Shown: in pieces, positions 32,803-59,454 of the stretch
Position numbering within the stretch: position 1 is the first letter of the stretch
How the letters are laid out: the number at the start of each line of letters is the position of its first letter
Origin: Escherichia virus TH32
Strand: one strand, 5' to 3'
DNA: 64,000 nt
Sequence record: MT446405.1
The notes under the pieces: generated by a model
Told to the model about the DNA's origin: nothing
Seen by the model: the letters and a program-made list of their open reading frames with translations, nothing else
The model's database searches: none
Program-made: the position numbers and the translations under genes

Positions 32803-32860
32803 GAATCACCTCTGCTTCAGTTCATAAAATGATTATAGTTGCTATGAAAATAAAAGCAAA

Positions 32861-34103: not shown

Positions 34104-34430
34104 ATGAACGAAAAAGATACGAAGCAACGCGAACGTGCAACACACGTCGGCATCGTTGAGTCCTTCCTTAATACCCGAATGAACTCAAGCCTAACAATCA
34201 TGCGATTCCTGGGTCAACCAGACAGAATCAAATTTATTTTTGCCGCAAATCCGGTATCGCTGTACATCCCTGTTGAATCCATGGCGTACTTAGTGCGCGA
34301 CGAGAAAGGATGGAAGATACCAAACACAACTGTTTTCTTCAGCCATGTTGATGGTGAGATGTTTGAACGAAAAGAAGATTGCCATTTTATTCCAGTATAT
34401 CTGGACCTTGACAGCGTAGTGGAGTTATAA
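34104..34430 (+). CDS. hypothetical protein
   Basis: 108 aa. Confidence 0.4.
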   Translation: MNEKDTKQRERATHVGIVESFLNTRMNSSLTIMRFLGQPDRIKFIFAANPVSLYIPVESMAYLVRDEKGWKIPNTTVFFSHVDGEMFERKEDCHFIPVYLDLDSVVEL

Positions 34431-35614
34431 TGAACATTCCAGAATTTAATGATGAGCCAGTGATTCAGTTTAACGCGCAACAAATCGATGCCATCGAGAA
34501 GGCCGTTGCATGGTACAAGCGATTGCAGGACGGTAAAACGACGAAGCGTGTGTTTTTCATTGCTGGCTATGCAGGGACTGGTAAAACTTCTATTGCTCGC
34601 GAGATTGTGCGCCGCTGTGTCGGTGAGTACGGAGCTATCTATATTGCGCCGACCGGAAAGGCTGCAAGCCGATTAAAGCAAAAAGGCTGTCGTGGCGCTA
34701 AGACCCTTCACCAGTTCATCTATAACGTGCGCGGCGTAAATGACGACAATGAGCCAATCTTTTCGAGGAAGTCAAAGCTGGATGAAAGGCCGCACCTTGT
34801 TGTCCTCGATGAAGCGTCGATGGTTGGCGAGTGGGACACAGAGCGCCTTCTTGATCACCGCATCCCTGTGCTGGCATTAGGCGACATTGGACAAGTCCCT
34901 CCGGTAAAAGCCGCCGCCTACTTTACTGAAGATGCCGTTGACGTGCTGTTAACCGAAATCATGCGGCAAGGGAAAGAGTCCAATATAATCCGCGCCTCCT
35001 TCTTCGTGCGCCAAGGCAACCGCCTTCCTCCGCGTGAATACGATGACGTCAAAGTATTGGCAGAATCGCCGCGCGTTACTGCATTGAAGAAATTCATGGG
35101 CGAAGATGATCAAATTATTTGCTCCTATAATAGCACCAAAGATAAATGGAATTCATTATTACGGCAAGTGAGCGGACGTATAACGCCAATGCCAGGAATC
35201 GGCGAGAAAGTTATTTGCACCTTCAACCAGCACGGGCCAGGATTCTGTAATGGCGAGCAAGGGATTGTTATTAGCTATGAACCAGTGCCGGACTTTGAAA
35301 GGGATGAAGACGAGTCGAATGAAATAATGTATGTCAACTTGCGTTCATTAACTGATGGTAAAGATATAAAGGTGAAGATCAATCCTCTTTCCTTCTCTAC
35401 TGATCAGGAAGTGCGCAAAGAAGCGCAACGCGCTGTTGGCGGGATGGACTATGGCTATGTAATCACGGTGCACAAATCGCAAGGCAGCGAGTGGGACAAT
35501 GTGTGCGTGCTGGAAGAAATCTTGCGCGGCGTTCCGTACTCCAAGATGATGTACACCGCAATCACCCGCGCTAAGAAGAATCTGACCGTGTACCGTGATT
35601 TGAAAGCGCGTTAA
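34430..35614 (+). CDS. RecD/Dda-like superfamily 1 DNA helicase
   Basis: Walker A GYAGTGKTS, Walker B VVLDEASMV, motif VI VITVHKSQGSEWDNV. Confidence 0.85.
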   Translation: MNIPEFNDEPVIQFNAQQIDAIEKAVAWYKRLQDGKTTKRVFFIAGYAGTGKTSIAREIVRRCVGEYGAIYIAPTGKAASRLKQKGCRGAKTLHQFIYNVRGVNDDNEPIFSRKSKLDERPHLVVLDEASMVGEWDTERLLDHRIPVLALGDIGQVPPVKAAAYFTEDAVDVLLTEIMRQGKESNIIRASFFVRQGNRLPPREYDDVKVLAESPRVTALKKFMGEDDQIICSYNSTKDKWNSLLRQVSGRITPMPGIGEKVICTFNQHGPGFCNGEQGIVISYEPVPDFERDEDESNEIMYVNLRSLTDGKDIKVKINPLSFSTDQEVRKEAQRAVGGMDYGYVITVHKSQGSEWDNVCVLEEILRGVPYSKMMYTAITRAKKNLTVYRDLKAR

Positions 35615-35774
35615 TGTTGACGTAAATTTACGAAAAATAAAACTGAAAATCAGTTTAATTAAAGTGGCATTGCCGCCATAGTTTTTAGTTGCTACTGGCG
35701 GCGACTGAAGGCATAATTAAGTTATCCCAAACGGGGGAATATAAAATAAACTAATTTATTTAAGGACTGTGAAC

Positions 35775-36614
35775 ATGGCCGAAGCAATCAAAGTATTATC
35801 TAAAGAAGAAAAACAAGCAGCTGCAGCAGAACGTCGTCGCGTGGCTGAAGAGAAACGCCTGGCTAAAAAGAAAGAAGCCGAAGAAAAACGCCAGAAGCGT
35901 GAGCAGGAAAAACAAGCCAAGCGTGAAGAAGCTGCGCTGAAACGCAAGCAGGCTGCTGATGAGAAGGCTCAGAAGCGTGCTGAAGAAGCGGCTAAGAAAG
36001 CTAAAGAGCGTGCAGAAAAGGCTGCTGCTAAGAAAGCAGAGCGTGAAGCCGCTAAAGCAGCAAAAGAAATCGAAAAGGCAAAGGCTAAAGAAGAAGCCAA
36101 GCGCCTGAAAGCTGAACAAGCTGCTGCTAAGAAAGCAGAGCGTGATCAAGCCCGTGCTGCAGCGAAGGCCGAAAAAGAAAAGGCCAAAGAAGAAGCTAAA
36201 GCGAAACGCAAGGCAGAGCGTGAAGCTGCTAAGATTGCGGCGAAAGAAGCTGCAGAACAGCAGAAAGAACAGCGCAAGAAAGAAGCTGAAGAGCGTCGCA
36301 AAGCGATTGCAGAGCGTAAAGCCGCCAAGAAAGCTAACGGTCAGCGTCGCGCTAAAGCAACTCACTTTGTTTACACCGGAAACGGCCTGAGCCAGCCGCA
36401 AGAGCATTCCACCCGTGGACGCGTTCTGGCGGCGATCAAAGAAGGCGAAATCGGTCAGCCGCAGTCTATCGACGAGCTGGGTGAAAAAGTTAAAGATCAG
36501 CTGTTTGGCGCTTCCGTTCGCTCTTACCTGAGCAAGCTGGAAGAGATGGGCCACATCGAGTTCATCGATGTTGAATCCAATGACGATGCCGAAGACGGTG
36601 ATCAAGCGGAATAA
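35775..36614 (+). CDS. Lys/Ala/Glu-rich repeat protein with globular C-terminal domain
   Basis: About 190 aa of KEEAEEKRQKREQEKQAKREEAALKRKQ...-type low complexity, then a 90 aa non-repetitive tail; antisense ORF 35796..36605 judged an artefact. Confidence 0.6.
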   Translation: MAEAIKVLSKEEKQAAAAERRRVAEEKRLAKKKEAEEKRQKREQEKQAKREEAALKRKQAADEKAQKRAEEAAKKAKERAEKAAAKKAEREAAKAAKEIEKAKAKEEAKRLKAEQAAAKKAERDQARAAAKAEKEKAKEEAKAKRKAEREAAKIAAKEAAEQQKEQRKKEAEERRKAIAERKAAKKANGQRRAKATHFVYTGNGLSQPQEHSTRGRVLAAIKEGEIGQPQSIDELGEKVKDQLFGASVRSYLSKLEEMGHIEFIDVESNDDAEDGDQAE

Positions 36615-36642
36615 CCTGTAGGACGGTTATGTAGCGGTAATT

Positions 36643-36669
36643 GACCCACACTTGTTGTGGGTCTTTTTT
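36643..36669 (+). terminator. rho-independent terminator
   Basis: GACCCACA-cttgt-TGTGGGTC followed by TTTTTT. Confidence 0.7.
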
Positions 36670-36748
36670 CGTCTGTACTAAATAAAAATGACTTGTTGCT
36701 GTAAGATAATTTAGCTATTATACTTCTCATATCACCCACAAAGGACAA

Positions 36749-37744
36749 ATGAACATGAAACAACCTGTAATGATTATCGGCGGCGGACTGGCAGGACTTA
36801 TCACCGCTTGCCACTTCCCAAACTCCATTGTGTACGAAGCAGGGGAACGAGCGCCACAGCACAAGGCGCTACTACGCTTTCGCGGCGAAGAAGTAAGCCG
36901 TATTACCGGAATCCCTTTTAAGGCCGTGACAGTTGACAAGGCTGTGTATTTTCGCGGCAACTACTACCACGACCATTGCCCAATCAACCTTGCCAATATG
37001 TATTCCATGAAGGTCACCAATCAGTTTGGCAGCCGTTCAATCATGAAGCTTAAAACTGCAACGCGTTATATTGCGCCTGATGACTTTTATGATCAACTTG
37101 TCGATAAGCTTGGCGACCGTATATTCTTCAATACTCCGGTCGACACCCTCTGCGGCTATAGCGAGACGCCAATCATCAATACATCGCCGCTGCCCGTCAT
37201 GATGAAGCTTGCTGGTATTGATCAAAAGCTCGACTTCTCGTTTGATAAGGCAAATATACGCGTTTATCGTTTTAAGATTAAGCGCAAGTGTGAACTGTAT
37301 CAAACAATTTACTTCCCTGACTATTCTGTAAGGACTTACCGCGCATCAATTACTGGTGACACGCTGATTATCGAAACAATTCCATTGGTAAGCGTCAGCG
37401 CGGCAGCAGTTGAAGCCGCTGGCGGCATTACCCGTTATCGCGACATGAAGTTGCGTGCAGAAGTGGACGAAGTTCTGACCGCTTTTGGTCTTTCATGGAA
37501 TGACATCTCTTTGGAAGAAGTTGAAAAGGTTGACCAGAAGTATGGCAAGATTGTCGACATTCCTAAAGACTTGCGCCACGCCTTACTGCTCCAGCTGACC
37601 ATGGATTTGAACGTATTTAGTGTCGGTCGCTTTGCTACTTGGCGAAACATTTTGCTTGATGACGTTGCTCATGACCTTGTTGAAGTTGAAAAACTCATCA
37701 AAGCAAATAACTATCAAAAATTTGCTTATATTGCTAATAAATAA
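36749..37744 (+). CDS. FAD/NAD(P)-binding Rossmann-fold protein
   Basis: N-terminal VMIIGGGLAGLITA (GxGxxG dinucleotide-binding motif); 331 aa. Confidence 0.5.
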   Translation: MNMKQPVMIIGGGLAGLITACHFPNSIVYEAGERAPQHKALLRFRGEEVSRITGIPFKAVTVDKAVYFRGNYYHDHCPINLANMYSMKVTNQFGSRSIMKLKTATRYIAPDDFYDQLVDKLGDRIFFNTPVDTLCGYSETPIINTSPLPVMMKLAGIDQKLDFSFDKANIRVYRFKIKRKCELYQTIYFPDYSVRTYRASITGDTLIIETIPLVSVSAAAVEAAGGITRYRDMKLRAEVDEVLTAFGLSWNDISLEEVEKVDQKYGKIVDIPKDLRHALLLQLTMDLNVFSVGRFATWRNILLDDVAHDLVEVEKLIKANNYQKFAYIANK

Positions 37745-37745
37745 T

Positions 37746-37773
37746 TTGCTTTCTGCTTCAATGGGCGTATACT
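37746..37773 (+). promoter_or_regulatory. sigma70-like promoter with dyad symmetry around -10
   Basis: TTGCTT-N16-TATACT; 12 bp inverted repeat arms 37752-37763 / 37779-37790. Confidence 0.4.
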
Positions 37774-37809
37774 TTAATCATTGAAGCAGAACTCATAGAG
37801 GAAACGAAA

Positions 37810-38256
37810 ATGAAACGAATCACTGGAATCGCGCTTGCCGCGACTGCTATTCTCGGAACCATGTATATGGAAGCGACTGAAGCCGCTGTCCGTACTTCCG
37901 ATTCAATCGCCGTGTATGATTGCGAAGCGATGGACGGTAAAACCGCAGCAACCACTGGCGCAACTATCACAGCTTACATCGGCGTGAACGAGCAAGAAGG
38001 TTTGAACATTCAGATTCAAGGATTCACAGGGAAAGGTGCCAACCGTACTCCGTGGATGCAACGTTTCACTTTCGTTCAGCCTCGTTCAACTGGCGGCTTC
38101 ATCAACCTCATTGGTGAAAACCGTTCTGGTGCAGAAATCTTTACATCAATGAGTTCTAATGATGAACCAAAGAAAAGTTTTCAGTTGCTTTATAACGCAC
38201 AATTCGTTTATCATTGCACCTTCTCTGGTGATCAGCAACTAGTGAATTACCGTTAA
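37810..38256 (+). CDS. secreted/periplasmic protein (signal peptide)
   Basis: N-terminal MKRITGIALAATAILGT... signal-like sequence; AGAGGA RBS. Confidence 0.45.
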   Translation: MKRITGIALAATAILGTMYMEATEAAVRTSDSIAVYDCEAMDGKTAATTGATITAYIGVNEQEGLNIQIQGFTGKGANRTPWMQRFTFVQPRSTGGFINLIGENRSGAEIFTSMSSNDEPKKSFQLLYNAQFVYHCTFSGDQQLVNYR

Positions 38257-38269
38257 TAGGATAATTAAA

Positions 38270-39100
38270 ATGAAAGTTGAATTAATTCGATACACCCAAA
38301 ATGCACTTGACCTTTTGCTGGAAACAAAGAACACGCGCATGACTGGCAAGCCCGTCTCTGAGATGACAGAATCAGAGAAGCAAGAGCACTGGCGCTACAT
38401 GCTTGACACCATCAAGTCACCTTTCGACTTTGTTGACTATATCTTTGACATCACTGATGTATCAAAGAATATGACTCATCAAATGGTGCGCACACGAACA
38501 GGTGCATATCAAGAACGAACAAGCCGCGCTCAGGAGTCTTCTGCCTTTGATGCGATTCGTCCGAAGGCATTTTCACACCAAAATCCAGAGTTGATTGATC
38601 ACTGTGAAGCATTTGGAACTGATGAAGAGCAACAATCTTTACTTCAAAAGCAATACTTAGCAGAGAAGTGGGATGACGCAATGGCGACTATCGATGCTTT
38701 GTATCAAGAACTTCGCGCGGCTGGCGCAGAGATTCAAGATGCACGTGCCGTGTTGCCTTCTAATATGCAAACGCATATCATGGCAAAGTTCAACTTGCGC
38801 ACCCTGCAGCAAATGGCCTCTAACCGCTTGTGCACGCGCACTCAAGGCGAGTATCAAGAAGTATTCCGTGCAATGGTTGCGGAAGTCCTTAAGGTGCACC
38901 CGTGGGCTAATCCTTTACTACAGCCGCAGTGCATCGGTATGGGTAAGTGCGCATTTCCTCGTCACGGTAAGGCCCATTGCCCTTGGTATCGTGATTGGAT
39001 GGATACCACGGCACAGCAAGAAGAGTTGCGCATCCAGTTTTGGAGTGCAATGCCAATCACCAACAATCCAGTTGCTAAAGATGGAGTATCAAAAGGATGA
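38270..39100 (+). CDS. ThyX-like (flavin-dependent thymidylate synthase family) protein, divergent
   Basis: VRTRTGAYQERTSR aligns with the ThyX signature RHRxxSYNExSxR but with His replaced by Thr. Confidence 0.4.
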   Translation: MKVELIRYTQNALDLLLETKNTRMTGKPVSEMTESEKQEHWRYMLDTIKSPFDFVDYIFDITDVSKNMTHQMVRTRTGAYQERTSRAQESSAFDAIRPKAFSHQNPELIDHCEAFGTDEEQQSLLQKQYLAEKWDDAMATIDALYQELRAAGAEIQDARAVLPSNMQTHIMAKFNLRTLQQMASNRLCTRTQGEYQEVFRAMVAEVLKVHPWANPLLQPQCIGMGKCAFPRHGKAHCPWYRDWMDTTAQQEELRIQFWSAMPITNNPVAKDGVSKG

Positions 39101-39969
39101 GCATTAAAAACAGCGAAATCTTAAACGTATTCGACCTTGACGGAACGCTGTTTGATGACCGTTGGCGCTTAGACCGCATCAAGGTGGCAGGTCCGTTGTC
39201 AGACTATGATGACTATCACAGCGGTATTGGTTATGATCAGTTCTATCCTCACATTGCATCAGCAGTAGAGGCTGCATCTCTTCGCGGTGAGGCGGTTGAA
39301 TATTGGACTGCAAGACCAGAAAAATACAGACAAGTGACTTTTGAGCGTCTGGACAATGTTTTCCCTTTTGATGAATTTACAATCAAGATGAGAGACTCTG
39401 GCGACAAACGTCCATCAACTATTATGAAATCTGCATGGCTATCGCACGCTTTGCGGCACGGCGATTATCGAATCATCAATGTATTCGACGACCGACAAGA
39501 CGTACTCGCGCGGATGCAAGATGAAGCATTGTATTATAACTCCGTTGCTCAAAATAAAATCGCTTTTACATTTAATCTTTGCAAAGCAGGTGAAGTGGTG
39601 CAACAATTAGCAATTGATCCAAGCGCAACAGGGCAAGAAGATACTAAGGCTGTGGAAGTTGAACAATCTCCGGCAACTGCCGCCGATATTCTTGATGCGA
39701 TGGCCGCGACCTTCCGTGAGCGCAACGCCGTTTATGGCGATAACGCTGTGATGGTGGGCCAGGTGATGCAAGTTCTCTTCCCTAATGGCGTCACGTTGAA
39801 AACGCCGGAAGACTACCACATGTGGCACCTCTTCGAGCTTAAGATTGTCAAGCTTACACGCTTCGCAATCAGCGGCCTGAAGCACGAAGACTCTATACAC
39901 GATGATGGTGTTTACAGCGCCATGTGTGAACGTCTTGTGAACACCCATAATATTAATTTCAATAAATAG
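39097..39969 (+). CDS. HAD-superfamily phosphatase domain protein (nucleotidase candidate)
   Basis: Motif I VFDLDGTLFDD; motif IV-like INVFDDRQD; extra C-terminal domain of about 120 aa. Confidence 0.6.
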   Translation: MSIKNSEILNVFDLDGTLFDDRWRLDRIKVAGPLSDYDDYHSGIGYDQFYPHIASAVEAASLRGEAVEYWTARPEKYRQVTFERLDNVFPFDEFTIKMRDSGDKRPSTIMKSAWLSHALRHGDYRIINVFDDRQDVLARMQDEALYYNSVAQNKIAFTFNLCKAGEVVQQLAIDPSATGQEDTKAVEVEQSPATAADILDAMAATFRERNAVYGDNAVMVGQVMQVLFPNGVTLKTPEDYHMWHLFELKIVKLTRFAISGLKHEDSIHDDGVYSAMCERLVNTHNINFNK

Positions 39970-39970
39970 T

Positions 39971-39998
39971 TTACTTGTGCGTTTCGATGAGTTATATT
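39971..39998 (+). promoter_or_regulatory. sigma70-like promoter with dyad symmetry around -10
   Basis: TTACTT-N16-TATATT; inverted repeat arms 39980-39991 / 40002-40013; downstream TCATCGAAACGAA box. Confidence 0.4.
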
Positions 39999-40034
39999 TA
40001 TCTCATCGAAACGAAGTCCAAAAAGGATAAATAA

Positions 40035-40718
40035 ATGAAAAAGGTAATTGTTGTAACAGGTGCCAATTCCGGTCTTGGTAAATCTATTTTTGACACCCTT
40101 GGCGCTTACGGTCACGAAGTCGTCGGAATCGATTTAGAGAACGGCTATGACATTCGTAACGCAAAACAGATGAAAGAACTTCTTAGCGGTTACGACGTAG
40201 AAGGCTTGATCAACTGTGCTGGCGTAAACTCTAACAACTGGTTTGAAGACGTCGATTATGAAGAGTTTAATCGCGTTATGCATACTAACGCATTCTCTTT
40301 CGTCAACACAACACAGGCTGCGTTGAAAAGTCTTGTCGATAATAAAGGCTTTGTTATTAACATTGTCTCTAACGCCGCGCATATTCCTATGACGTCCAGT
40401 TTGTGCTATAATGCATCCAAGGCCGCTGCGCTTATGATCACTAAGCAGATGGCGCACGAGCTTACGCCTAAATACGGTATTACGGTATTCTCTATTAGTC
40501 CGAACAAGTTGCGCGGCACTGGCATGTCTAAACAGATTGAAGATGCTGTTTGTGCAACTCGCGGGTGGACCCCTGAGTATGCCGCTGAATACCAGAAAAA
40601 GGCATTGATGAACGGATTGGAGACTGAGCCGCAAGTAATTGCTGACTTCATTCGCCATATCTTAATTACGGGCGCATGGCGCTTTATGTCTGGTACTGAT
40701 ATTCCATTTGGGAAATAA
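40035..40718 (+). CDS. short-chain dehydrogenase/reductase (SDR)
   Basis: TGANSGLGKS cofactor motif, NAG-like segment, catalytic YNASK (YxxxK). Confidence 0.8.
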   Translation: MKKVIVVTGANSGLGKSIFDTLGAYGHEVVGIDLENGYDIRNAKQMKELLSGYDVEGLINCAGVNSNNWFEDVDYEEFNRVMHTNAFSFVNTTQAALKSLVDNKGFVINIVSNAAHIPMTSSLCYNASKAAALMITKQMAHELTPKYGITVFSISPNKLRGTGMSKQIEDAVCATRGWTPEYAAEYQKKALMNGLETEPQVIADFIRHILITGAWRFMSGTDIPFGK

Positions 40719-40721
40719 ATC

Positions 40722-40937
40722 ATGAACAAAGCCTGGTTAGCGGTGATTGGTCTGGTCCTTCTGGTTGTATTGGGATACACTATCAAATTTGAAGTTCCAA
40801 ATCCTGCTGAGCCTGACAAAAAGATTGTCGTTGAAGTACCAGGCGCGAAAGGGGAATTACCAAAACCTAAATTCGAAGTGGTAACGCCTGCGCCTGAAAA
40901 ACCGCAGGACTCTGATAACACCGTAATCAATAAGTGA
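40722..40937 (+). CDS. small membrane-anchored Pro-rich protein
   Basis: N-terminal TMD (AWLAVIGLVLLVVLGY) then Pro/Lys-rich tail. Confidence 0.4.
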   Translation: MNKAWLAVIGLVLLVVLGYTIKFEVPNPAEPDKKIVVEVPGAKGELPKPKFEVVTPAPEKPQDSDNTVINK

Positions 40938-41070
40938 GATTATGGAAGAAGAATTTAACATCCCTGGTCTGGATGAAGAAAAAGACTATGCTGCTGAAGT
41001 AGTCAGCAAAGAAGAAACTCATGAAGCCGACAACGTTTGCGGCGATGCTTGTAAAATCTAAGGAAACAAA

Positions 41071-41622
41071 ATGCCACATTTTAAAATTGAACAAATCGCC
41101 CTGTCAATTCCAGATGCTCAGCGCGCACAGGATTTCTTGGCTAAAATCGGCCTGACAGAATGGTTCCATGATCATGTTGTTGCTACTGGTCGCGTATTTG
41201 AAGCTGATGACTTTAAAGGTCGTCGCGACGATTGCACCAATGAAGCTGACTTGCGCTTCAACTATCAGGCTGGCAACGGTACTGATGGCAGAGCTGGTAA
41301 GCCTCTTGAGCTTGAAATCCTTGACTACACAATGGGCTGCAACTGGATTAACGAAAACATCGAATATATCGATGCGCATGACAATCAGGTCAGCCACCTT
41401 GGCATGCACGTGACTGCCGCTGAACTTGCTGAATGGCGTAAGTTCTTTAAAGAAGAAGGTATTCAGGTTGCACAGGAAGTTGTAACTGACTCTCATACCA
41501 ACCCGAACATTGCTGGTCAACGTCGTTACAACTATGTGATCTTTGATACGCGTGAAATCATCGGCGTTGATTTGAAGTTTATCGTGCGCTTGAATCAAGA
41601 CGGTACTCCGTACACCGTATAA
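41071..41622 (+). CDS. VOC/glyoxalase-like fold protein (putative)
   Basis: N-terminal IEQIALSIPDAQRAQDFLAKIGL resembles the first beta-alpha-beta unit of glyoxalase/bleomycin-resistance proteins; weak. Confidence 0.3.
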   Translation: MPHFKIEQIALSIPDAQRAQDFLAKIGLTEWFHDHVVATGRVFEADDFKGRRDDCTNEADLRFNYQAGNGTDGRAGKPLELEILDYTMGCNWINENIEYIDAHDNQVSHLGMHVTAAELAEWRKFFKEEGIQVAQEVVTDSHTNPNIAGQRRYNYVIFDTREIIGVDLKFIVRLNQDGTPYTV

Positions 41623-41638
41623 CGAATCGTGAATCTGT

Positions 41639-41663
41639 GGCCGTCCTAATGGGCGGCCTTTTT
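41639..41663 (+). terminator. rho-independent terminator
   Basis: GGCCG-tcctaatgg-GCGGCC followed by TTTTT. Confidence 0.55.
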
Positions 41664-41676
41664 GTAGGAGGCTAAT

Positions 41677-42219
41677 GTGTTATTTCTCCCTTATGACTTC
41701 GAAACAACCGGATTGACCGTGCACCCGAAAGCGCCGCTTGGGATGCAGCCGCGCCCTATTGAATTTGCAGGTCTGTTGACAGACGGCAAAGAGATTCTTG
41801 AAACGTTTGAATTCATAATTAATCCTGAAATCGTGATTGAAGAAATTATCACAAAGATTACCGGATTAACAAATGAAGATATTGAGTGCAATCCACCGTT
41901 CATCAATTTCGTCCCGCAGCTAAAAGAAATATTCAAGAAGACTGATGCAACTATCGCGCATAACCATGCGTTCGATAAAAACATTCTTGATTATGCACTA
42001 CAGCGCGAAGGACTTACGCTTGATGATGTTAATTTTCCAGAAATAAACATATGTACAGTTGAGCAAACCTTGCCTATTTTTGGCCGAAGAGTTAAGCTTC
42101 AAGAGCTGTATGAATTATATTTCGGAAAATATGAACAGAAGCACCGTGCATTAGACGACGTAATATTACTGCACAAAGTCTGCCAACAAATTGGTGTATA
42201 TGACATCTGGAGTAAATAA
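41677..42219 (+). CDS. DnaQ-like 3'-5' exonuclease (DEDDh)
   Basis: GTG start; Exo I YDFETTGL, Exo II IAHNHAFDKNIL, Exo III HRALDDVILL. Confidence 0.75.
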   Translation: MLFLPYDFETTGLTVHPKAPLGMQPRPIEFAGLLTDGKEILETFEFIINPEIVIEEIITKITGLTNEDIECNPPFINFVPQLKEIFKKTDATIAHNHAFDKNILDYALQREGLTLDDVNFPEINICTVEQTLPIFGRRVKLQELYELYFGKYEQKHRALDDVILLHKVCQQIGVYDIWSK

Positions 42220-45116
42220 TGTTTCCACAATTGAGAGTTCGCAGCGGTTACACGTTCAAAGAAGTTTATGGACGGCACCCTGAAATTATAGCACGGCTCA
42301 AAGAGTTGGGCTGCGAAGTCGCGGCATTAGTTGATAACAACACATGGGGTCATGTCCGCTGGGAAAAGGAATGCCAGAAAAATTATATTAAGCCTATGTT
42401 TGGGATGGAGATTCCAATCATCGACCCTGATGCGGACCCGAAAAAGGGATTCAAACCGAAGGCTTGGATTCTTGCGCTTGATTTAAAATCTTTCTACAAC
42501 GCAACCACGCTTGCAACCAAAAAGGGCGGCTTAACCCGTGCAGAGTTCGGTGCGCTTGATGGCGTAGTTAAATTCTGTGGCGGTGCCGTGGAGCTGTTGC
42601 GGCCAGAGGACTATGACTATATAGACGTCAACCCATCATCGTTCCTTTTGGCAAAGCGCCAGGTATTGGCTCATCGCGCAGGAGGAAGGCCGCTGGTTTT
42701 AACCGGATACAATCACATGCCTTCACCTGAGCACGTTGACTTTGCTTATGCTTGGGAAGTGCGCGACACGGTTAAGCCGCACTGCATCGTAAGCGATGAA
42801 GAGTTGCGGAGTCAACTAAAAGGTATTCTTACAGAAGACGAGCTTGCACAGGCAACTTCAAATGCCATTGACATCGCAAATGGCATAGTCGGGCTTGACC
42901 TTAAACTGCGCAAGGCTCCGATTATTCACCTTGCAGGCGACATGGTAAAACTTGCTCGTGAGGGGATGGAGTACCGTCTAAAAGCAGGTCACATCAAAGA
43001 ATGGACTCAGGAATATGAGGACCGCTTCAACGAAGAAATTCATCAGATTCAGCTGAAAGATTTCGACTCATACTTTCTGGTGGTAGCGGACCTTGTACGA
43101 TTCGCAAAAACAAAAATGCTCGTCGGTCCTGCGCGCGGCTCATCGGCTGGTTCACTGGTTTGTTATTGCTTAGGCATCACGGAAGTGGACCCAATCCCGT
43201 ATAAGCTGCTGTTTGCCCGATTCATCGACGTAAGCCGCGCCGACCTTCCTGACATCGACATCGACTTTGAAGATACCAAACGCTATATGGTGTTTGATTA
43301 TCTTAAAGAGAAATACGGCGAAATGAACGTTGCAAAGCTTGGCAACATCAACACGCTTAAGGCCAACTCAGTAATGGCTCAAGTTGGTAAGAAGTTCAAC
43401 ATTGGATACCACGAAACAGCCAACATTAAAAACGCACTGCTTGAATACTCATCCGGTGACGCCCGTTATGGTCACGGCCTGGAGGATACCTTTGCAACAA
43501 CGACCACGGGTCAAGAGTTCGTGGCTAAATATCCTGATGCCGCGCGTTGCATGGGTGACCTTGAGATTCACCCGTCCCACACAGGTGTTCACGCAGCGGG
43601 AATCATTGTGTGTAATGACCCAATCTCTGATTACTGTACTGTAACTGCAGAAGGGATTGCGCAAATCGATAAGCCTGACAGCGAATACCTCAACCTTTTG
43701 AAGCTTGATGCGCTGGGCCTTCGTACTCTCGGCATTATTTCTGATACAGGCGTTATTGATGCTGAAACGCTCTACGGAATCAAGCTTGATGATCAAAGCG
43801 TCCTTGACATTCTTAACGAAAACAAGATGTCAGGCATCTTCCAGTTTGAAGGTGATGCTGTACGTTCAGTAACAAACTTTGTGCACGTCGACAACTTTAA
43901 CAAAATCGACAACCTGACGGCTTTGGGTCGACCTGGCCCGTTGTCATCCGGTATGGCCCAGAAATACATTGAACGCGCGGCAGGGCGTGCGCCGATTGAA
44001 TACGACGTGCCGCAGCTTGAGCCGTACTTAAAAGAGACTTACGGCGTGTTTCTTTACCAAGAGCAAATCATGGCCGTGGTTAAAGAGATTGGTTCATTTG
44101 ACTGGGCGAAAACGTCAGCTGTACGTAAGGCGATGTCAGGCCGTAAGGGTGAGGAATACTTTAACAAGCTTGGCGAGGACTTTGTTGCAGGCGCAATCAA
44201 TAACGGCGTACCGGAAGCGGATGCAAGAAAGCTTTGGCAAGCGATGGCTACGTTCGGGTCATGGGGCTTTAACAAGTCACACTCCGTGTCATACGCGGTC
44301 GTGACCTACTGGACCTTGTGGCTTAAGCGACACTACCCGTTGGAATTTGCCGCTGCCTGCTTACGCGCTGCTAAGGACGAAGACCAGACGATTGCGATAT
44401 TACGTGAACTTGCAAAGGAAGGCGTGGATTATGTGCCAATCGACCCTGATCACTCTTCGATGAACTGGACCATCGCGAACGGAAAGCTAATCGGCGGCAT
44501 CATGAACGCGAAAGGGTACGGCATGGTGAAGGCGATGAAGTACATCGAAGCGCGTGAAGCCGGAACCTTAACGCAGAAACAAAAGGACGCATTGGCCAAT
44601 GCTGAAGTAAAATACGGCGACCTTACAGAGATGCACACAAAGTTCGGCTGGGCGTATAATGACCCGTATCTGATTGGGGTGACGTCCGGCGCTTCAATAC
44701 GCCAGATGAAGGAAGTCGGTGATGACGAGCGCGCAATAGTAATCGGCAAGTTGACAAAGAAGGTGCTTGCGGACGAGAACGAAGCAACACGCATCCGTAA
44801 ACGACTTGAGCGCGGCATCTATACAAAGCACGGCAAGCTTAAAAAGGGTCTTCAAGCTGATGGCCGCTACGCAGAGTTTGACCAGTACGGGAACAAGCTT
44901 GAGACTCAGTTCATCGACCTTATGTGCAAAGACGACTCGACCGACTCGCCAATGCGCTTCAGGATTCGTCCAGAGAAGTTCCAGAAGTACGGGAAGTACA
45001 TCGCTGAAAACGTCGGGAACGGCGCATTCTTCCTGATGAAAGGTCGTAAGCTTGAAGGCATTGACATGTTCATCGTTGACGTGATCAAACAGGTGTATCC
45101 AGATGGCAACAAATAA
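42219..45116 (+). CDS. DNA polymerase III alpha-type (C-family, DnaE-like) catalytic subunit
   Basis: GPARGSSAGSLVCYCLGITEVDP...PDIDIDF matches the DnaE palm signature GPGRGSxAGSLVAY...PDxDxDF; degenerate N-terminal PHP-like region; 965 aa. Confidence 0.9.
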   Translation: MFPQLRVRSGYTFKEVYGRHPEIIARLKELGCEVAALVDNNTWGHVRWEKECQKNYIKPMFGMEIPIIDPDADPKKGFKPKAWILALDLKSFYNATTLATKKGGLTRAEFGALDGVVKFCGGAVELLRPEDYDYIDVNPSSFLLAKRQVLAHRAGGRPLVLTGYNHMPSPEHVDFAYAWEVRDTVKPHCIVSDEELRSQLKGILTEDELAQATSNAIDIANGIVGLDLKLRKAPIIHLAGDMVKLAREGMEYRLKAGHIKEWTQEYEDRFNEEIHQIQLKDFDSYFLVVADLVRFAKTKMLVGPARGSSAGSLVCYCLGITEVDPIPYKLLFARFIDVSRADLPDIDIDFEDTKRYMVFDYLKEKYGEMNVAKLGNINTLKANSVMAQVGKKFNIGYHETANIKNALLEYSSGDARYGHGLEDTFATTTTGQEFVAKYPDAARCMGDLEIHPSHTGVHAAGIIVCNDPISDYCTVTAEGIAQIDKPDSEYLNLLKLDALGLRTLGIISDTGVIDAETLYGIKLDDQSVLDILNENKMSGIFQFEGDAVRSVTNFVHVDNFNKIDNLTALGRPGPLSSGMAQKYIERAAGRAPIEYDVPQLEPYLKETYGVFLYQEQIMAVVKEIGSFDWAKTSAVRKAMSGRKGEEYFNKLGEDFVAGAINNGVPEADARKLWQAMATFGSWGFNKSHSVSYAVVTYWTLWLKRHYPLEFAAACLRAAKDEDQTIAILRELAKEGVDYVPIDPDHSSMNWTIANGKLIGGIMNAKGYGMVKAMKYIEAREAGTLTQKQKDALANAEVKYGDLTEMHTKFGWAYNDPYLIGVTSGASIRQMKEVGDDERAIVIGKLTKKVLADENEATRIRKRLERGIYTKHGKLKKGLQADGRYAEFDQYGNKLETQFIDLMCKDDSTDSPMRFRIRPEKFQKYGKYIAENVGNGAFFLMKGRKLEGIDMFIVDVIKQVYPDGNK

Positions 45117-45525
45117 CCGTGAGCAGAAATACATATTCGTGCCTTTGAAGAAGCATTCAGAATCGGTATTGAAGCTTCAACGAATCGAGTCGATGACTGG
45201 TGATGGCGTGCCGGACGTAATCGGCACCAACCGGAAAGGGCGCGGCTTTTGGCTTGAAATGAAGTTCTTTGAATCGTGGCCTGCAAGGGCCACCACTGCA
45301 CCTTTCAGAAATGCATTTGAGAAAGGCCAATGCAGCTTCCTTTCTTCGTGGAATGATTGGCGATACCCATCATTCGTTTTGCTTAAGGTTGATTCTGAGA
45401 AGATGTTTTATTTAGTCCACCCTTCTATTGAATTAAAGCGTTATAATACTGCAGACGTTCAACGTGAGATAATCGTGAAGGGAACTATTCATCACATCAT
45501 CAAGTATTTAGAGGAATTGTCATGA
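45103..45525 (+). CDS. VRR-NUC domain nuclease
   Basis: GVPDVIGTNRKGRGFWLEMK (PD-(D/E)xK-like) plus downstream QCSFLSSW pattern. Confidence 0.6.
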   Translation: MATNNREQKYIFVPLKKHSESVLKLQRIESMTGDGVPDVIGTNRKGRGFWLEMKFFESWPARATTAPFRNAFEKGQCSFLSSWNDWRYPSFVLLKVDSEKMFYLVHPSIELKRYNTADVQREIIVKGTIHHIIKYLEELS

Positions 45526-47045: not shown

Positions 47046-47058
47046 TATCAAAAATAAT

Positions 47059-47087
47059 TTGACTTGTCACGGAAGATGAGTCATAAT
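47059..47087 (+). promoter_or_regulatory. sigma70-like promoter
   Basis: TTGACT-N17-CATAAT followed by conserved TCATCGAAACGAA. Confidence 0.5.
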
Positions 47088-47119
47088 TACTTCATCGAAA
47101 CGAAACAGAGGAATACAAA

Positions 47120-47383
47120 ATGGTACGCATCCTTGAACGTTACAAAAATGAAGCTACTGGCGCAATCGCTTTCAAACGTCTTTTGGTCAAAGAAATTGAC
47201 GGAATGTTTCGCATTGTTAAAGAGTTTGATTATGGCAACGGTGCTGGGGTGAATACCGTTATCATGCCTGGCATCAAGGCGTATAAAACCTTAAAAGGCG
47301 CTGAGAAGGCTTTGGCGGCTTGGAAACCTGAACGTTATCAAATGACCCGTGTTGAAGGGCTAATGCAAGAAGGTAAAATTTAA
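47120..47383 (+). CDS. hypothetical protein
   Basis: 87 aa, AGAGGA RBS. Confidence 0.45.
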   Translation: MVRILERYKNEATGAIAFKRLLVKEIDGMFRIVKEFDYGNGAGVNTVIMPGIKAYKTLKGAEKALAAWKPERYQMTRVEGLMQEGKI

Positions 47384-47631
47384 TGAGTAAAAAAGTTCTG
47401 TTAATTGGGCCGCGTAACTCCGGCAAGACTACCAGTGCAAATAAAATTGCCGAAGTCATGGGACTTGCAGAAATATTTGAGCTTGACGGATTCAAAGTGC
47501 CAAACGGTTATAAGTTGCGCGATGACGTTGATGCCCTGTTTATAGCATCAAAACTTCCTCGCGGAATCCGTCGAGAACATTTTGACATAGTCATTGAAAT
47601 TAATAAGGGGTACATAAATGTCAACTATTAA
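47383..47631 (+). CDS. small P-loop protein
   Basis: Walker A-like LLIGPRNSGKTT. Confidence 0.45.
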   Translation: MSKKVLLIGPRNSGKTTSANKIAEVMGLAEIFELDGFKVPNGYKLRDDVDALFIASKLPRGIRREHFDIVIEINKGYINVNY

Positions 47632-48175
47632 CTGGGAAGATGATCTGCCGCAAGTAGCTCCTGAAAGTATTCAAGAGCGCCTTGCGCGCTTAGTATCTGA
47701 ACTGGCAGAACGCCAAGAAGCTTTGACAGAGCTTGAAGATGAAGCTGATATGCAAAAGCAGCGCATCAGTGAAATCAAAACTGTTCTGCTTCCTGGCGTT
47801 ATGGATGAGCTTGGTGTGTCCGAAATCAAGCTTGAGGACAAGACCAAAATCAAGGTCGAGTCCAAGGTGAACGCTTCAATCAAGAAAGAAAACGAATTAA
47901 AAGTTTTCGATTGGCTTGTAAACAACGGTTACGGCGGCTTGATCAAGTCCAGCGTCACGGCTGAGTTCGGTCGCGAAGAAATTGAACAGGCGCAAGAGAT
48001 TGTTGCCGCGCTGCGTGAAGATGGTGTTGAAGCCACGTTGAAACAAGGCGTTCATTCTGCTACACTGAAGTCGTTTGTAAAAGAACAGCTGGAAGCAGGC
48101 AATCCAGTTAGTGAAGATATTAGCGTTTTTGAATACAAAGAAGCTAAAATAACCTTGCCTAAAAGCAAAAAGTAA
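47618..48175 (+). CDS. hypothetical acidic coiled-coil protein
   Basis: 185 aa, AAGGGG RBS. Confidence 0.45.
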   Translation: MSTINWEDDLPQVAPESIQERLARLVSELAERQEALTELEDEADMQKQRISEIKTVLLPGVMDELGVSEIKLEDKTKIKVESKVNASIKKENELKVFDWLVNNGYGGLIKSSVTAEFGREEIEQAQEIVAALREDGVEATLKQGVHSATLKSFVKEQLEAGNPVSEDISVFEYKEAKITLPKSKK

Positions 48176-49095: not shown

Positions 49096-49114
49096 TCGAC
49101 AATCAAATCAACAA

Positions 49115-58672: not shown

Positions 58673-59397
58673 TCTATCATATCCCCAGTTCTGTTTCCAG
58701 GTCCGTTACCTATGTGACCGTGAGTGGATACATTTGTGCCGCCGATTGTTGTGCCAGTCGGAAGCGTTGCCGTCGTTCCTTCTTTCCCTTCTATACCACC
58801 ATTGAACGTTGCCTTTCCATTCACTATCAATTGTTGGTCGATAGTGGTTATTGGTGTTTTCACATTTACTCCAGCCGATGCAGTTATGTTTATCGAGTCA
58901 TCACTTAATGCAATGCGGACAGCGCCGCTGAGTGACTGGATTACCATTGAGCCTGCATCCTCTCCGCTTATGGTGTATTTTCGAAATACATCCGGTATGA
59001 ACAGTCCATCAGCGAAAGTTTTCGCGCGACCATTGGTAGGCGCGGTCGGCTTCAATTCTTCAAGGAATGTCGACAACTCGCGGTCGCCAGCGAATATCCA
59101 GCCCAAATCACCCTCTTTCAGAGGAAAGTTGATTACGAAGCCGCCGCCGCCGATTGCCAATACAGGAATTGACACCAAAGGTTGACGCTCCACTGGTTTA
59201 TCATCAAGACTTACGAAGTGAATAACAGGCTTTATGACTGCTAAATTCTGTTTGCGGTCATAAGATATTACTTGTGCAGGAATCATGCCGTCAGTGGTAT
59301 ACTTGCCACGGTCCAGCATTCCCTGCAGCGCGGCAAACATACTTGATTTGTCAGTTTGGTTGGGGCTTGTAAGTTGGGTTAACTTTTCTGCCATCAT
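58669..59397 (-). CDS. baseplate spike/assembly protein (V-like), putative
   Basis: Start at MMAEK with AAGGAG RBS; Gly-rich C-terminal beta-strand-like repeats; position-based. Confidence 0.35.
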   Translation of the reverse strand: MMAEKLTQLTSPNQTDKSSMFAALQGMLDRGKYTTDGMIPAQVISYDRKQNLAVIKPVIHFVSLDDKPVERQPLVSIPVLAIGGGGFVINFPLKEGDLGWIFAGDRELSTFLEELKPTAPTNGRAKTFADGLFIPDVFRKYTISGEDAGSMVIQSLSGAVRIALSDDSINITASAGVNVKTPITTIDQQLIVNGKATFNGGIEGKEGTTATLPTGTTIGGTNVSTHGHIGNGPGNRTGDMIE

Positions 59398-59454
59398 AGA
59401 CTCCTTATATCTGATCAACAAATTATAATCTATAAGGAGTCTATAAGCAATATT

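What the first reader, a model, noticed from the sequence alone, without database searches (positions are those of the whole stretch)
37746..40013. Promoter family with inverted repeats bracketing the -10 element and a conserved downstream box
At 37746-37790 and 39971-40013 a sigma70-like -35/-10 pair is embedded in a perfect 12 bp inverted repeat whose arms flank the -10 hexamer (TCTGCTTCAATG ... TATACT ... CATTGAAGCAGA and GCGTTTCGATGAG ... TATATT ... CTCATCGAAACG). The arms differ between promoters, so the symmetry rather than the sequence is conserved. The promoters at 39971 and 47059 further share ACTTGT...GATGAGT...TCATCGAAACGAA. This could be operator sites, cruciform-prone promoters or RNase III processing hairpins if read through from upstream.
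Basis: seen in the sequence. Interest (0 to 1): 0.5.

Follow-up and report, generated by a model that had tools for sequence, protein, structure and literature searches.

The report
Phage promoters built inside RNA hairpins
In this E. coli phage (a Wifcevirus), several internal promoters sit inside inverted repeats, so RNA reading through from the upstream gene should fold into a hairpin that RNA started at the promoter cannot form; this layout is already known from T4-type phages and is seen here in a different phage lineage.

Summary
S1 is a perfect 13-bp inverted repeat (37751-37763 / 37779-37791). S2 is a perfect 12-bp repeat (39980-39991 / 40002-40013). Each encloses the -10 hexamer of a sigma70-like promoter with a 17-bp spacer. 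The window holds five perfect repeats of at least 12 bp, against 0.07 expected.

A third site of the same design lies on the minus strand (59396-59450). Its right arm carries the Shine-Dalgarno sequence of the baseplate-spike gene.

S2 and S3 (47059) are paralogues. Their shared box TCATCGAAAC sits four bases after the -10 and recurs in Pseudomonas phage 14-1.

In distant relatives, the orthologous promoters keep a hairpin while the arm sequences are replaced, and compensatory changes are seen. Hairpins occur at internal promoters that upstream transcription reads through. They are absent at promoters that follow terminators or face divergently (p=0.0006; replicated in relatives, p=0.035).

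Best reading: these are promoter/stem-loop cassettes like the PeSLs of T4-type phages, plus one T4 gene-e-type site that hides a ribosome-binding site. The hairpin exists only in read-through RNA. What the S1 and S2 hairpins do is inferred, not shown; they hide no ribosome-binding site and have no U-tract.

Verdict: new member of a known kind, moderate interest.

The parts
37745..37750 (+). S1 -35 hexamer TTTGCT (alternatively TTGCTT 37746-37751). The stop codon TAA of the upstream gene is at 37742-37744.
   Evidence: 17-bp spacer to TATACT.
37751..37763 (+). S1 left arm TTCTGCTTCAATG, lying in the promoter spacer.
   Evidence: perfect 13-bp inverted repeat. Invariant in 9 Wifcevirus genomes.
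37768..37773 (+). S1 -10 hexamer TATACT, inside the 15-nt loop.
37779..37791 (+). S1 right arm CATTGAAGCAGAA, which covers the predicted transcription start (A at 37780) and the first 12 nt of the leader. It is a variant (TCATTGAAGC) of the conserved box. The ATG of the downstream gene is at 37810.
39970..39975 (+). S2 -35 hexamer TTTACT. The stop codon TAG of the upstream gene is at 39967-39969.
39980..39991 (+). S2 left arm CGTTTCGATGAG in the spacer. Its GATGAG part is also the 3' arm of the older S3-type hairpin.
   Evidence: A homologous left arm GTTTCGATGAGTTG occurs in distant relative L032.
39993..39998 (+). S2 -10 hexamer TATATT, inside the 10-nt loop.
40002..40013 (+). S2 right arm CTCATCGAAACG. 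It contains the conserved box TCATCGAAAC and the predicted start (A at 40005). The ATG of the FabG-like gene is at 40035.
47055..47089 (+). S3 promoter: -35 TTGACT 47059-47064 and -10 CATAAT 47082-47087. It carries a hairpin of another type that bridges the -35 to the -10 (TAATTTGACTTGTC / GATGAGTCA-AATTA, two G.U pairs, loop ACGGAA).
   Evidence: The hairpin is conserved with compensatory changes at the orthologous post-helicase junction in six other lineages; the five that align without gaps were counted.
47092..47104 (+). S3 copy of the conserved start-region and leader box TCATCGAAACGAA. Predicted start is the A at 47094.
59396..59450 (-). S4, a third site with the same design, read on the minus strand: -35 TTGCTT 59450-59445; left arm ATAGACTCCTTATA 59444-59431; -10 TATAAT 59427-59422 in a 21-nt loop; right arm TATAAGGAGTCTAT 59409-59396. 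The right arm holds the Shine-Dalgarno AGGAG and the first ATG of the baseplate-spike gene.
   Evidence: dG -26.7, z -6.2; SD unpaired 0.72 in local RNA, 0.00 in read-through RNA. Orthologues with different arms occur in L014/L015 and phage 14-1.
35681..35717 (+). Another internal promoter with an embedded hairpin of the S3 type: -35 TTGCTA 35689-35694, -10 CATAAT 35712-35717, stem GTTTTTAGTTGCT / GGCGACTGAAGGC with five G.U pairs.
   Evidence: sense -21.2 against antisense -7.0 kcal/mol; z -3.6.

Best explanation
S1 and S2 are composite promoter/stem-loop cassettes. Each is a sigma70-type internal promoter whose two sequence-free parts have been made complementary: the 17-bp spacer and the first dozen transcribed bases. 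Using those two parts as arms necessarily puts the -10 hexamer in the loop.

Consequence. RNA that reads through from the upstream gene carries both arms. No terminator precedes S1, S2 or S3, so such RNA is expected. It should fold into a stable hairpin starting 6-10 nt after the upstream stop codon. RNA started at the promoter begins inside or just before the right arm (predicted starts 37780 and 40005). It lacks the left arm and stays open. The two kinds of mRNA for the same downstream gene are therefore structurally different.

At the sister site 59396-59450 the right arm is the ribosome-binding site. Read-through RNA should be translationally silent or dependent on coupling, while locally started RNA is open. 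This is the mechanism described for T4 genes e, soc, 49 and I-TevI.

At S1 and S2 the hairpin hides the conserved 5' leader box, not the ribosome-binding site, and no U-tract follows it. I infer that it marks and insulates the 3' end of the upstream message. It could act as an attenuator, as a barrier to 3' exonucleases, or as a processing site, as proposed and partly shown for the PeSL cassettes of T4-type phages.

Shown here: the repeats, their non-randomness, their conservation as structure, and their link to read-through context.
Inferred: that the promoters fire, where they start, and what the S1/S2 hairpin does to the RNA.
For: 1. Non-random repeats with the -10 in the loop.

2. Structure is kept while sequence is replaced.
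- At the S1-orthologous spot, just after the homologue of gene 36749-37744, relatives with 36-48% protein identity carry repeats that bracket or overlap the -10, with unrelated arms: L024, L025, L026, L029, L032, L062.
- L006 and L007 differ by a compensated GGG/CCC to GGGG/CCCC change.
- The S4 orthologue in L014/L015 has different 12-bp arms, but still has TATAAT in the loop and the Shine-Dalgarno in the right arm.
- Phage 14-1 has a hairpin with TATACT in the loop and the start codon in the stem at the same junction.

3. Within the genus, S1-S4 are almost invariant while the flanks are 90-96% identical.
- Substitutions fall in the loops.
- The single arm change is G-C to G.U.

4. Context.
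- In the window, 7 internal promoters have mean folding z -3.4.
- 4 promoters after canonical terminators have mean z +0.4, and 10 divergent or first promoters have mean z -0.5.
- Mann-Whitney p=0.0006.
- In relatives, 30 internal promoters have mean z -1.7 (15 with z<=-2) against 9 divergent at -0.45 (1 with z<=-2), p=0.035.
- Canonical terminators exist elsewhere in the window at 36643, 41639, 49113 and 51308. They are also annotated at matching places in phage Mansfield, which annotates none at S1 or S2.

5. RNA-level signal.
- The S3-type hairpin aligned without gaps across seven promoter sequences (six lineages): 91% of cells paired against 68% in shuffles (0/500).
- 5 of 8 pairs changed on both sides.
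- One pair is U.G in four sequences and U-A in three.
- The hairpin at 35681-35717 folds at -21.2 kcal/mol in sense against -7.0 in antisense.

6. Shine-Dalgarno accessibility at S4 is 0.72 in local RNA and 0.00 in read-through RNA.

7. Precedents.
- PeSLs are sigma70-like promoters with a stem-loop most often between the -35 and -10 or overlapping the -10. They lie between a stop codon and a Shine-Dalgarno, are associated with accessory genes, and their stem-loops were active as terminators (PMC2839356; PMC4122927).
- In T4, late promoters sit within RBS-sequestering hairpins (PMC3014915; PMC2988022).
- S1, S2 and S3 all precede accessory genes. Genes 37810 and 47120 have no homologue in L006-L008. 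The FabG-like gene is absent from L008 and 14-1 and is annotated as a moron in the BASEL phage records.
Against: - No transcript data exist for any Wifcevirus. Promoter activity, start sites and read-through are all predicted.
- S1 and S2 do not sequester the ribosome-binding site. Shine-Dalgarno accessibility is 0.67 against 0.42 at S1 and 0.50 against 0.50 at S2.
- They lack a U-tract, so neither of the two documented functions (RBS masking, intrinsic termination) is demonstrated for them.
- The S1, S2 and S4 stems are perfect Watson-Crick pairs. That says nothing for RNA over DNA and is what a DNA-level constraint would give.
- Global strand-asymmetry tests were not significant: sense against antisense dG p=0.13, and G.U against A.C stem extension p=0.10.
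- In phage 14-1, the promoters carrying the same box have no bracketing repeat, so the repeat is not obligatory for this promoter type.
- The internal/other classification rests on my own gene calls and small numbers.
Confidence: 0.55

Rival explanations
1. RNase III (or other double-strand-specific) processing site. The read-through hairpin is cut. This separates upstream and downstream cistrons and leaves a protective stem on the upstream 3' end, as at the T7 early RNase III sites. It is a special case of the read-through-RNA reading.
For: - The hairpins lie between cistrons, 6-10 nt after stop codons and 19-22 nt before the next ATG.
- No U-tract follows, so they are not classical terminators.
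- They occur at read-through junctions.
Against: - The stems are only 12-14 bp. From general knowledge, E. coli RNase III substrates are usually about two helical turns.
- Related promoters carry much shorter stems of 5-8 bp that could not be substrates.
- Nothing here tests cleavage.
Confidence: 0.12
2. DNA operator. A dimeric phage or host regulator binds the two arms and occludes the -10, switching these promoters off or on at a set time.
For: - The palindromes are perfect and overlap the core promoter.
- The S1 and S2 arms share the core CATYGAARC.
- The box TCATCGAAAC is conserved as far as Pbunavirus 14-1 at a fixed position after the -10, which would suit a protein site.
Against: - Orthologous promoters have unrelated arms (GGATGGATTGAT, ATCAGCAGG, GGTCTGATT, CGTGTACGTTTG and others).
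- The gap between arms ranges from 9 to 27 nt; it is 10 at S2 and 15 at S1, half a helical turn apart.
- S3 and the four 14-1 promoters have the box only once, with no second half-site.
- S4 has arms made of anti-SD and SD sequence.
- The association with read-through context is not predicted.
Confidence: 0.1
3. Supercoil-dependent cruciform or hairpin promoter. Extrusion of the repeat places the -10 in a single-stranded loop. This either blocks or pre-melts the promoter and couples its activity to DNA topology or to passing polymerases.
For: - Perfect 12-14 bp arms and A+T-rich loops that contain the -10.
- Precedents recalled from memory, not checked here: the synthetic cruciform-regulated promoter of Horwitz and Loeb (1988), and the hairpin early promoters of phage N4.
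Against: - From general knowledge, loops of 10-27 nt make extrusion energetically and kinetically unfavourable.
- Related promoter hairpins contain G.U pairs, which would be mismatches in DNA and are conserved as such.
- The hairpin position relative to the hexamers varies among orthologues.
- Hairpins are absent from divergent promoters, which experience the strongest negative supercoiling.
Confidence: 0.08
4. No function of its own. The perfect repeats are by-products of mutation (template-switch 'correction' of quasi-palindromes) or of recombination between repeated promoter cassettes, and are tolerated because spacer and leader are unconstrained.
For: - The perfection of the arms.
- S2/S3 paralogy shows that promoter cassettes duplicate.
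- S3 and the 14-1 promoters work, presumably, without a bracketing repeat.
Against: - The arms are invariant within the genus while the loops and flanks vary.
- The same architecture recurs at orthologous junctions in lineages with 36-48% protein identity.
- The S2 left arm is recognisably conserved in L032 even though it lies in a normally free spacer.
- There is an association with read-through context.
Confidence: 0.07

Closest known systems
PeSLs (promoter-early stem-loops) of T4-type phages RB49/phi1, PST and nt-1 (Arbiol et al. 2010, PMC2839356; Comeau et al. 2014, PMC4122927)
   Same: - A sigma70-like promoter with 17-bp spacing fused to a stem-loop.
- The stem-loop lies between the -35 and -10 or overlaps the -10.
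- An A+T-rich stretch holding the upstream stop codon lies 5' of the -35.
- A Shine-Dalgarno and start codon lie at the 3' end.
- Copies are repeated in the genome and are paralogous.
- They sit in front of accessory genes.
   Different: - The phage lineage is different (Wifcevirus/Pbunavirus-like, not T4-type).
- Stems are not G-run/C-run.
- S1 and S2 stems are long perfect repeats that use the spacer and the initial transcribed region, so the whole -10 is in the loop.
- No U-rich tail follows.
- Terminator activity and PeSL-mediated recombination or mini-circles are untested here.
T4 genes e, soc, 49 and I-TevI (and Aeh1 mobE): a late promoter placed inside a hairpin that sequesters the ribosome-binding site (reviewed in PMC3014915 and PMC2988022)
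   Same: The site at 59396-59450:
- The promoter -10 is in the loop and the Shine-Dalgarno is in the 3' arm.
- Transcripts from upstream can fold.
- Transcripts from the embedded promoter lack the 5' arm.
- The arrangement is conserved in relatives with different stems.
   Different: - The embedded promoter looks sigma70-like (TTGCTT-17-TATAAT) rather than like a T4 late TATAAATA promoter.
- S1, S2 and S3 use the same geometry but do not include the ribosome-binding site.
- Nothing has been tested experimentally.
Conserved transcribed-region ('downstream') homology of strong phage T5 promoters (Gentz and Bujard 1985; Kammerer et al. 1986; recalled from memory, not checked here)
   Same: A block of conserved sequence from about -2 to +10 or further is shared by several strong sigma70 promoters of one phage. 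Here it is TCATCGAAACG(C)GAAAC, four bases after the -10.
   Different: - The sequence is different.
- Here the block is conserved between phages of E. coli and Pseudomonas.
- In some copies it is paired with the spacer.
Intercistronic RNase III sites of T7/T3 early RNA, and 3' stabiliser hairpins (general knowledge)
   Same: A stable hairpin between cistrons of a polycistronic phage RNA, close behind a stop codon and without a U-tract.
   Different: - Much shorter, with a perfect stem and no internal loop.
- Superimposed on a promoter.
- Cleavage is untested.

Membership tests
PeSL-type promoter/stem-loop cassette | Sigma70-like -35 and -10 hexamers with about 17-bp spacing, in an intergenic gap just upstream of a gene | tested here: met
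   - S1: TTTGCT-17-TATACT.
- S2: TTTACT-17-TATATT.
- S3: TTGACT-17-CATAAT.
- S4: TTGCTT-17-TATAAT.
This is a sequence match only; activity was not measured.
PeSL-type promoter/stem-loop cassette | A stable stem-loop overlapping or adjacent to the promoter (between the -35 and -10, overlapping either box, or just outside) | tested here: met
   S1 dG -19.1 (z -3.4), S2 -22.1 (z -5.8), S4 -26.7 (z -6.2), S3 -12.2 (z -2.0). Enrichment over shuffled promoters.
PeSL-type promoter/stem-loop cassette | A+T-rich region with the upstream stop codon 5' of the -35, and a Shine-Dalgarno plus start codon 3' of the element | tested here: met
   - S1: TAATAAATAA then TTTGCT.
- S2: CAATAAATAG then TTTACT.
- The Shine-Dalgarno and ATG lie within 37 nt of the -10.

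PeSL-type promoter/stem-loop cassette | The stem-loop terminates or attenuates transcription coming from upstream | not testable with these tools
   No U-tract follows the S1 or S2 stems, and the terminator scan did not list them. Reporter or in vitro transcription assays are needed.
PeSL-type promoter/stem-loop cassette | Repeated copies associated with accessory genes (ORFans) and with insertions/deletions between relatives; recombination between copies | tested here: inconclusive
   - S2 and S3 are paralogous over about 65 bp.
- The genes after S1 and S3 have no homologue in L006-L008.
- The FabG-like gene after S2 is absent from L008 and 14-1.
- Recombination between copies was not examined.
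T4 gene e-type translational control (promoter inside an RBS-sequestering hairpin) | The Shine-Dalgarno and/or start codon is paired in the hairpin formed by upstream-initiated RNA | tested here: met
   This holds for S4 only. The Shine-Dalgarno AGGAG is in the right arm, with unpaired probability 0.00 in read-through RNA against 0.72 in local RNA. The arrangement is conserved in L014/L015 and 14-1.
T4 gene e-type translational control (promoter inside an RBS-sequestering hairpin) | The same feature at S1, S2 and S3, the sites of the original finding | tested here: not met
   - Shine-Dalgarno unpaired probability, local against read-through: S1 0.67/0.42, S2 0.50/0.50, S3 0.21/0.22.
- The S1 stem ends 19 nt and the S2 stem 22 nt before the ATG.
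T4 gene e-type translational control (promoter inside an RBS-sequestering hairpin) | The embedded promoter starts transcription inside the hairpin, so its RNA lacks the 5' arm | not testable with these tools
   The geometry predicts starts at 37780, 40005 and 59415, all 3' of the left arms. 5' end mapping is needed.
Intrinsic (Rho-independent) terminator | G+C-rich stem with a short loop, followed at once by a U-tract | tested here: not met
   - S1 is followed by CTCATAGAGG and S2 by AAGTCCAAAA.
- The loops are 15 and 10 nt.
- Genuine terminators in the same window at 36643, 41639, 49113 and 51308 do have the U-tract.
Palindromic operator for a dimeric DNA-binding protein | Conserved half-site sequence at a fixed centre-to-centre spacing | tested here: not met
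   Arms are unrelated among orthologues, and loop lengths range from 9 to 27 nt (10 at S2, 15 at S1).
Known RNA families (Rfam 15) | A match at gathering score | tested here: not met
   No family matched anywhere in the window.
RNase III processing site | Cleavage of the stem by RNase III | not testable with these tools
   Only the stem lengths (12-14 bp, perfect) can be stated.

The most novel reading that the evidence does not exclude
The bracketing repeats are a conserved switch acting on the 5' leader. The box TCATCGAAACG(C)GAAAC is conserved from Pseudomonas Pbunavirus to E. coli Wifcevirus at a fixed place after the -10. On this reading it is a functional 5'-terminal RNA signal, for example for a phage or host factor that controls stability or translation. 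The spacer-encoded left arm exists to mask that signal in read-through RNA. The phage could then treat 'locally started' and 'read-through' copies of the same gene differently without using terminators. This would be a mode of transcript-isoform control not described for PeSLs or for T4.
Probability: 0.12. Interest if true: 0.65.

Novelty: new member of a known kind. Interest (0 to 1): 0.4.

Why it matters
Wifcevirus phages are little studied. They are reported to replicate unusually fast, and they are relatives of Pbunavirus phages used in therapy (BASEL preprint).

The analysis shows that their internal promoters are built into hairpins at junctions where there is no terminator. That gives a concrete map of where transcript isoforms should differ: predicted starts at 37780, 40005, 47094 and 59415.

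It also extends the PeSL idea and the T4 'promoter inside a hairpin' idea beyond T4-type phages.

Finally, it identifies a start-region and leader box conserved across phages of different hosts. The practical uses are better annotation of regulatory elements in this phage group and compact promoter/insulator parts for engineering.

Tried and rejected
- **Ribosome-binding-site sequestration at S1-S3.** Computed and not supported.
- **Intrinsic terminator.** No U-tract follows the stems, and the terminator scan did not list them.
- **Rfam.** No hits in the window.
- **Strand-asymmetry tests.** These were meant to separate RNA-level from DNA-level pairing over all 60 promoters. Sense against antisense MFE gave p=0.13. 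G.U-allowed against A.C-allowed stem length gave p=0.10. Both lean towards sense RNA but are not significant.
- **Scan of viral contigs** with TANNNTNNNNTCATCGAAACG. It said nothing about the distribution of the box.
- **Experimental start and termination sites of Pbunavirus 14-1** (Putzeys et al. 2024, PMC10914365). These could have tested the model at orthologous junctions, but the supplementary tables are not held.
- **Close Wifcevirus genomes.** They are too similar at these sites to give covariation.
- **Bidirectional promoter.** I considered that the repeat might reflect one, but no -35/-10 pair is present on the opposite strand at S1.
- **Literature on Wifcevirus**. The title/abstract lists and the one paper searched in full text (the BASEL preprint) contain no transcription mapping and no mention of these elements.


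Full report
**What the window is.** A 4-kb stretch around the finding (window 37000-41000) is 91-95% identical to E. coli myophages of the genus Wifcevirus, such as FEC19, WFC/WFH, ECML-117, Mansfield and Bas98-101. Their genomes are about 68 kb, so the 64-kb window would span most of one. The finding lies in the rightward block of replication and nucleotide-metabolism genes, 34104-52180.

**The observation.**
- S1 and S2 are as described, with small corrections. S1 is a perfect 13-bp inverted repeat (37751-37763 / 37779-37791) with a 15-nt loop holding TATACT (37768-37773). The -35 TTTGCT abuts the left arm.
- S2 is a perfect 12-bp repeat (39980-39991 / 40002-40013) with a 10-nt loop holding TATATT (39993-39998). 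Its -35 is TTTACT, 17 bp upstream.
- S3 (TTGACT-17-CATAAT, 47059-47087) shares about 65 bp with S2 at 77-78% identity, including TCATCGAAACGAA.
- Only 13 perfect repeats of at least 9 bp (loop 3-30) exist in the window. Five have stems of at least 12 bp, against 0.07 expected.
- As RNA, S1 folds at -19.1 kcal/mol (z -3.4) and S2 at -22.1 (z -5.8).

**More members in the same window.**
- A promoter scan found a third site of identical design on the minus strand. Read 5' to 3' it is: TTGCTT (59450-59445), left arm ATAGACTCCTTATA (59444-59431), loop with TATAAT (59427-59422), right arm TATAAGGAGTCTAT (59409-59396).
- Its right arm contains the Shine-Dalgarno and first ATG of the baseplate-spike gene (dG -26.7, z -6.2).
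- S3 and the promoter at 35689-35717 carry a second kind of embedded hairpin. It pairs the -35 region with the bases just 5' of the -10 and contains G.U pairs.

**Comparative evidence.**
- Nine Wifcevirus genomes are almost invariant across S1-S4 although the flanks are 90-96% identical.
- The substitutions that do occur fall in the loops: S1 GGGCG to GAGAG; two changes in the S2 loop; three alleles at one S3 loop position.
- The single arm change, in Bas99, converts a G-C pair to G.U.
- A metagenome scan anchored on the gene upstream of S1 gave 48 distant relatives.
- At the spot orthologous to S1, those with a recognisable sigma70-type promoter have a hairpin built into it.
- In L024, L025, L026, L029, L032 and L062 it brackets or overlaps the -10. 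The arms are unrelated: CGTGTACGTTTG, ATCAGCAGG, GGATGGATTGAT, GGTCTGATT, GATGAGTTG, ATTCGACGGGTC.
- L032's arms are homologous to those of S2. A spacer sequence has therefore been kept across about 43% protein identity.
- The S4 junction in L014/L015 (47% protein identity) has different 12-bp arms, TATAAT in the loop and the Shine-Dalgarno in the right arm.
- Phage 14-1 has a comparable hairpin at that junction.
- Over 60 promoters, stems of at least 9 bp with the -10 in the loop number 5 against 0.16 expected.

**The S3-type hairpin covaries.**
- The junction after the helicase gene carries a -35-to-(-10) hairpin in the window, 14-1, L006, L007, L025, L032 and L008.
- The 17-bp spacing is constant, so seven 29-nt promoters align without gaps: those of the window (S3), 14-1, L006, L007, L025 and L032, plus S2.
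- On that alignment, 91% of cells pair against 68% in shuffles (0/500), and 5 of 8 pairs change on both sides.
- Sliding the partners drops pairing to 50% or less.
- One pair is U.G in four sequences and U-A in three.
- A retained U.G on the sense strand argues for an RNA structure.

**The downstream box.**
- TCATCGAAAC lies four bases after the -10 in S2 and S3. S1 has TCATTGAAGC.
- The box recurs after GATAAT in L024 and, as TCATCAAAAC, in L032.
- It occurs downstream of four sigma70-like promoters of Pseudomonas phage 14-1 (AGTGCTTTACT-N17-TAtAaT-N4-TCATCGAAACGCGAAAC). One of these is at the S1-orthologous junction.
- It is therefore an old, conserved start-region and leader element, and it is independent of the bracketing repeat.
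- The BASEL preprint states that Wifcevirus and Pbunavirus are distant relatives.

**Where hairpins occur.**
- Canonical terminators (G+C stem plus T-run) stand at 36643, 41639, 49113 and 51308. Mansfield's annotation has terminators at matching places and none at S1 or S2.
- Promoters that follow terminators show no embedded hairpin (mean z +0.4, n=4). Divergent or first promoters show none either (mean z -0.5, n=10).
- Internal promoters with a co-directional gene upstream and no terminator do have one (mean z -3.4, n=7). The Mann-Whitney p is 0.0006.
- An automated repeat on relatives alone gave -1.7 (n=30; 15 with z<=-2) against -0.45 (n=9; 1 with z<=-2), p=0.035.
- This link is what a hairpin acting in read-through RNA predicts. 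An operator or a cruciform would not predict it.

**Mechanism.**
- The spacer and the initial transcribed region are the two parts of a promoter that can change freely. Making them complementary creates a hairpin across the promoter without touching the hexamers, and it puts the -10 in the loop.
- RNA from upstream has both arms. RNA from the embedded promoter (predicted starts 37780, 40005, 59415) has only the right arm.
- At S4 this changes Shine-Dalgarno accessibility from 0.72 to 0.00. That is the arrangement described for T4 e, soc, 49 and I-TevI (PMC3014915, PMC2988022).
- At S1-S3 the ribosome-binding site is not affected and no U-tract follows. Their role is inferred by analogy with PeSLs: attenuation, a 3' end barrier, or processing of the upstream message.
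- PeSL stem-loops sit mostly between the -35 and -10 or over the -10, precede accessory genes, and acted as terminators in reporters (PMC2839356, PMC4122927).
- S1, S2 and S3 also precede accessory genes.

**Rivals.**
- An operator is unlikely, because the arms are unrelated and the arm spacing varies from 9 to 27 nt.
- A cruciform is unlikely, because the loops are long and related hairpins contain G.U pairs. It cannot be excluded for the perfect repeats.
- RNase III is possible but the stems are short.
- A neutral by-product is unlikely given the conservation.
- Two global strand-asymmetry tests were not significant.

**Verdict.** It fits known kinds: PeSL-like cassettes, plus one T4 gene-e-type site, in a phage lineage where I found no description of them. 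The searches were limited: three searches of the paper library, with one paper searched in full text. The function of the S1 and S2 hairpins remains an inference.

Noticed in passing
window 5449-5863 and 21707-21937 (related repeats in 18135-18691): Arrays of ATCCGTATC / CGTATCATCCGTA repeats occur in both orientations: 9 and 8 exact copies respectively. They include 13-bp perfect inverted repeats at 5568-5603 and 5765-5820 and flank very A+T-rich cores. They look like iterons of an origin or a terminal/packaging region. The phage encodes RepB'-like primases according to Mansfield's annotation, and from memory primases of that kind recognise hairpin initiation sites.
   Followed up: partly
window 19007-19027 (-) and 19572-19592 (+): Two early-type promoters (AGTGCTTTACT...TATAAT at 19073-19083 on the minus strand and 19516-19526 on the plus strand) are each followed by a 5' leader hairpin. 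The loop CGAATAGGTCG is identical in the two, and the stems covary (GGTAGC/GCTACC against GTTAAC/GTTAAC). This may be a protein-binding leader element.
   Followed up: no
window 12448-12564: Two face-to-face divergent promoters overlap on an imperfect palindrome TATAGCTTGCACAAGCAAACTATA. They are TTGATA-18-TATAAT on the minus strand and TTTGCT-18-TAAAAT on the plus strand.
   Followed up: no
window 32803-32860 (-): The promoter ATAGTTTGCTTT...TATAAT CATT...TGAAGCAGAGG is a paralogue of S1, sharing the -35 context and TGAAGCAGA. It has no bracketing repeat. S1's left arm therefore looks like a later adaptation of the spacer to the leader.
   Followed up: partly
phage 14-1 (L070) 28270-28342: The hairpin CUGGGAAGGC...GCUUUCCCAUG lies at the gp41/gp42 (baseplate spike) junction. 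It contains CTGGG, the core of the non-sigma70 promoter motif that Putzeys et al. 2024 report about 5 bp upstream of eleven 14-1 start sites. A phage-specific promoter may sit inside this hairpin, which sequesters the start codon.
   Followed up: partly
window 2148-2155 (-): TATAAATA, the T4 late-promoter consensus, lies just upstream of the start of the 379-aa gene at 2253-3392, which may be the major head gene. It follows two strong hairpins in the 2138-2252 gap. How this phage transcribes its late genes is unknown.
   Followed up: no
L036 4730-4782: A distant relative has a 13-bp perfect repeat TTGCGTTTCGTTT ... AAACGAAACGCAA with TATAAT in the loop on the reverse strand. The arms are built from the same CGAAAC leader motif as S2.
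   Followed up: no
L006/L007/L008/L023/L027, promoters upstream of the FabG-like gene and of the gene that follows the 36749 homologue: Several relatives share a spacer hairpin with variable stems and a conserved loop and junction, (C)AAGGATG, directly 5' of the -10. Examples are GGCCAAGGATGGCC, GCTCAAGGATGAGC and GCGCAAGGATGCGC. S3 (GGAAGATGAGTC) and 14-1 (AAGGAAGATGCGGC) look like the same element.
   Followed up: partly
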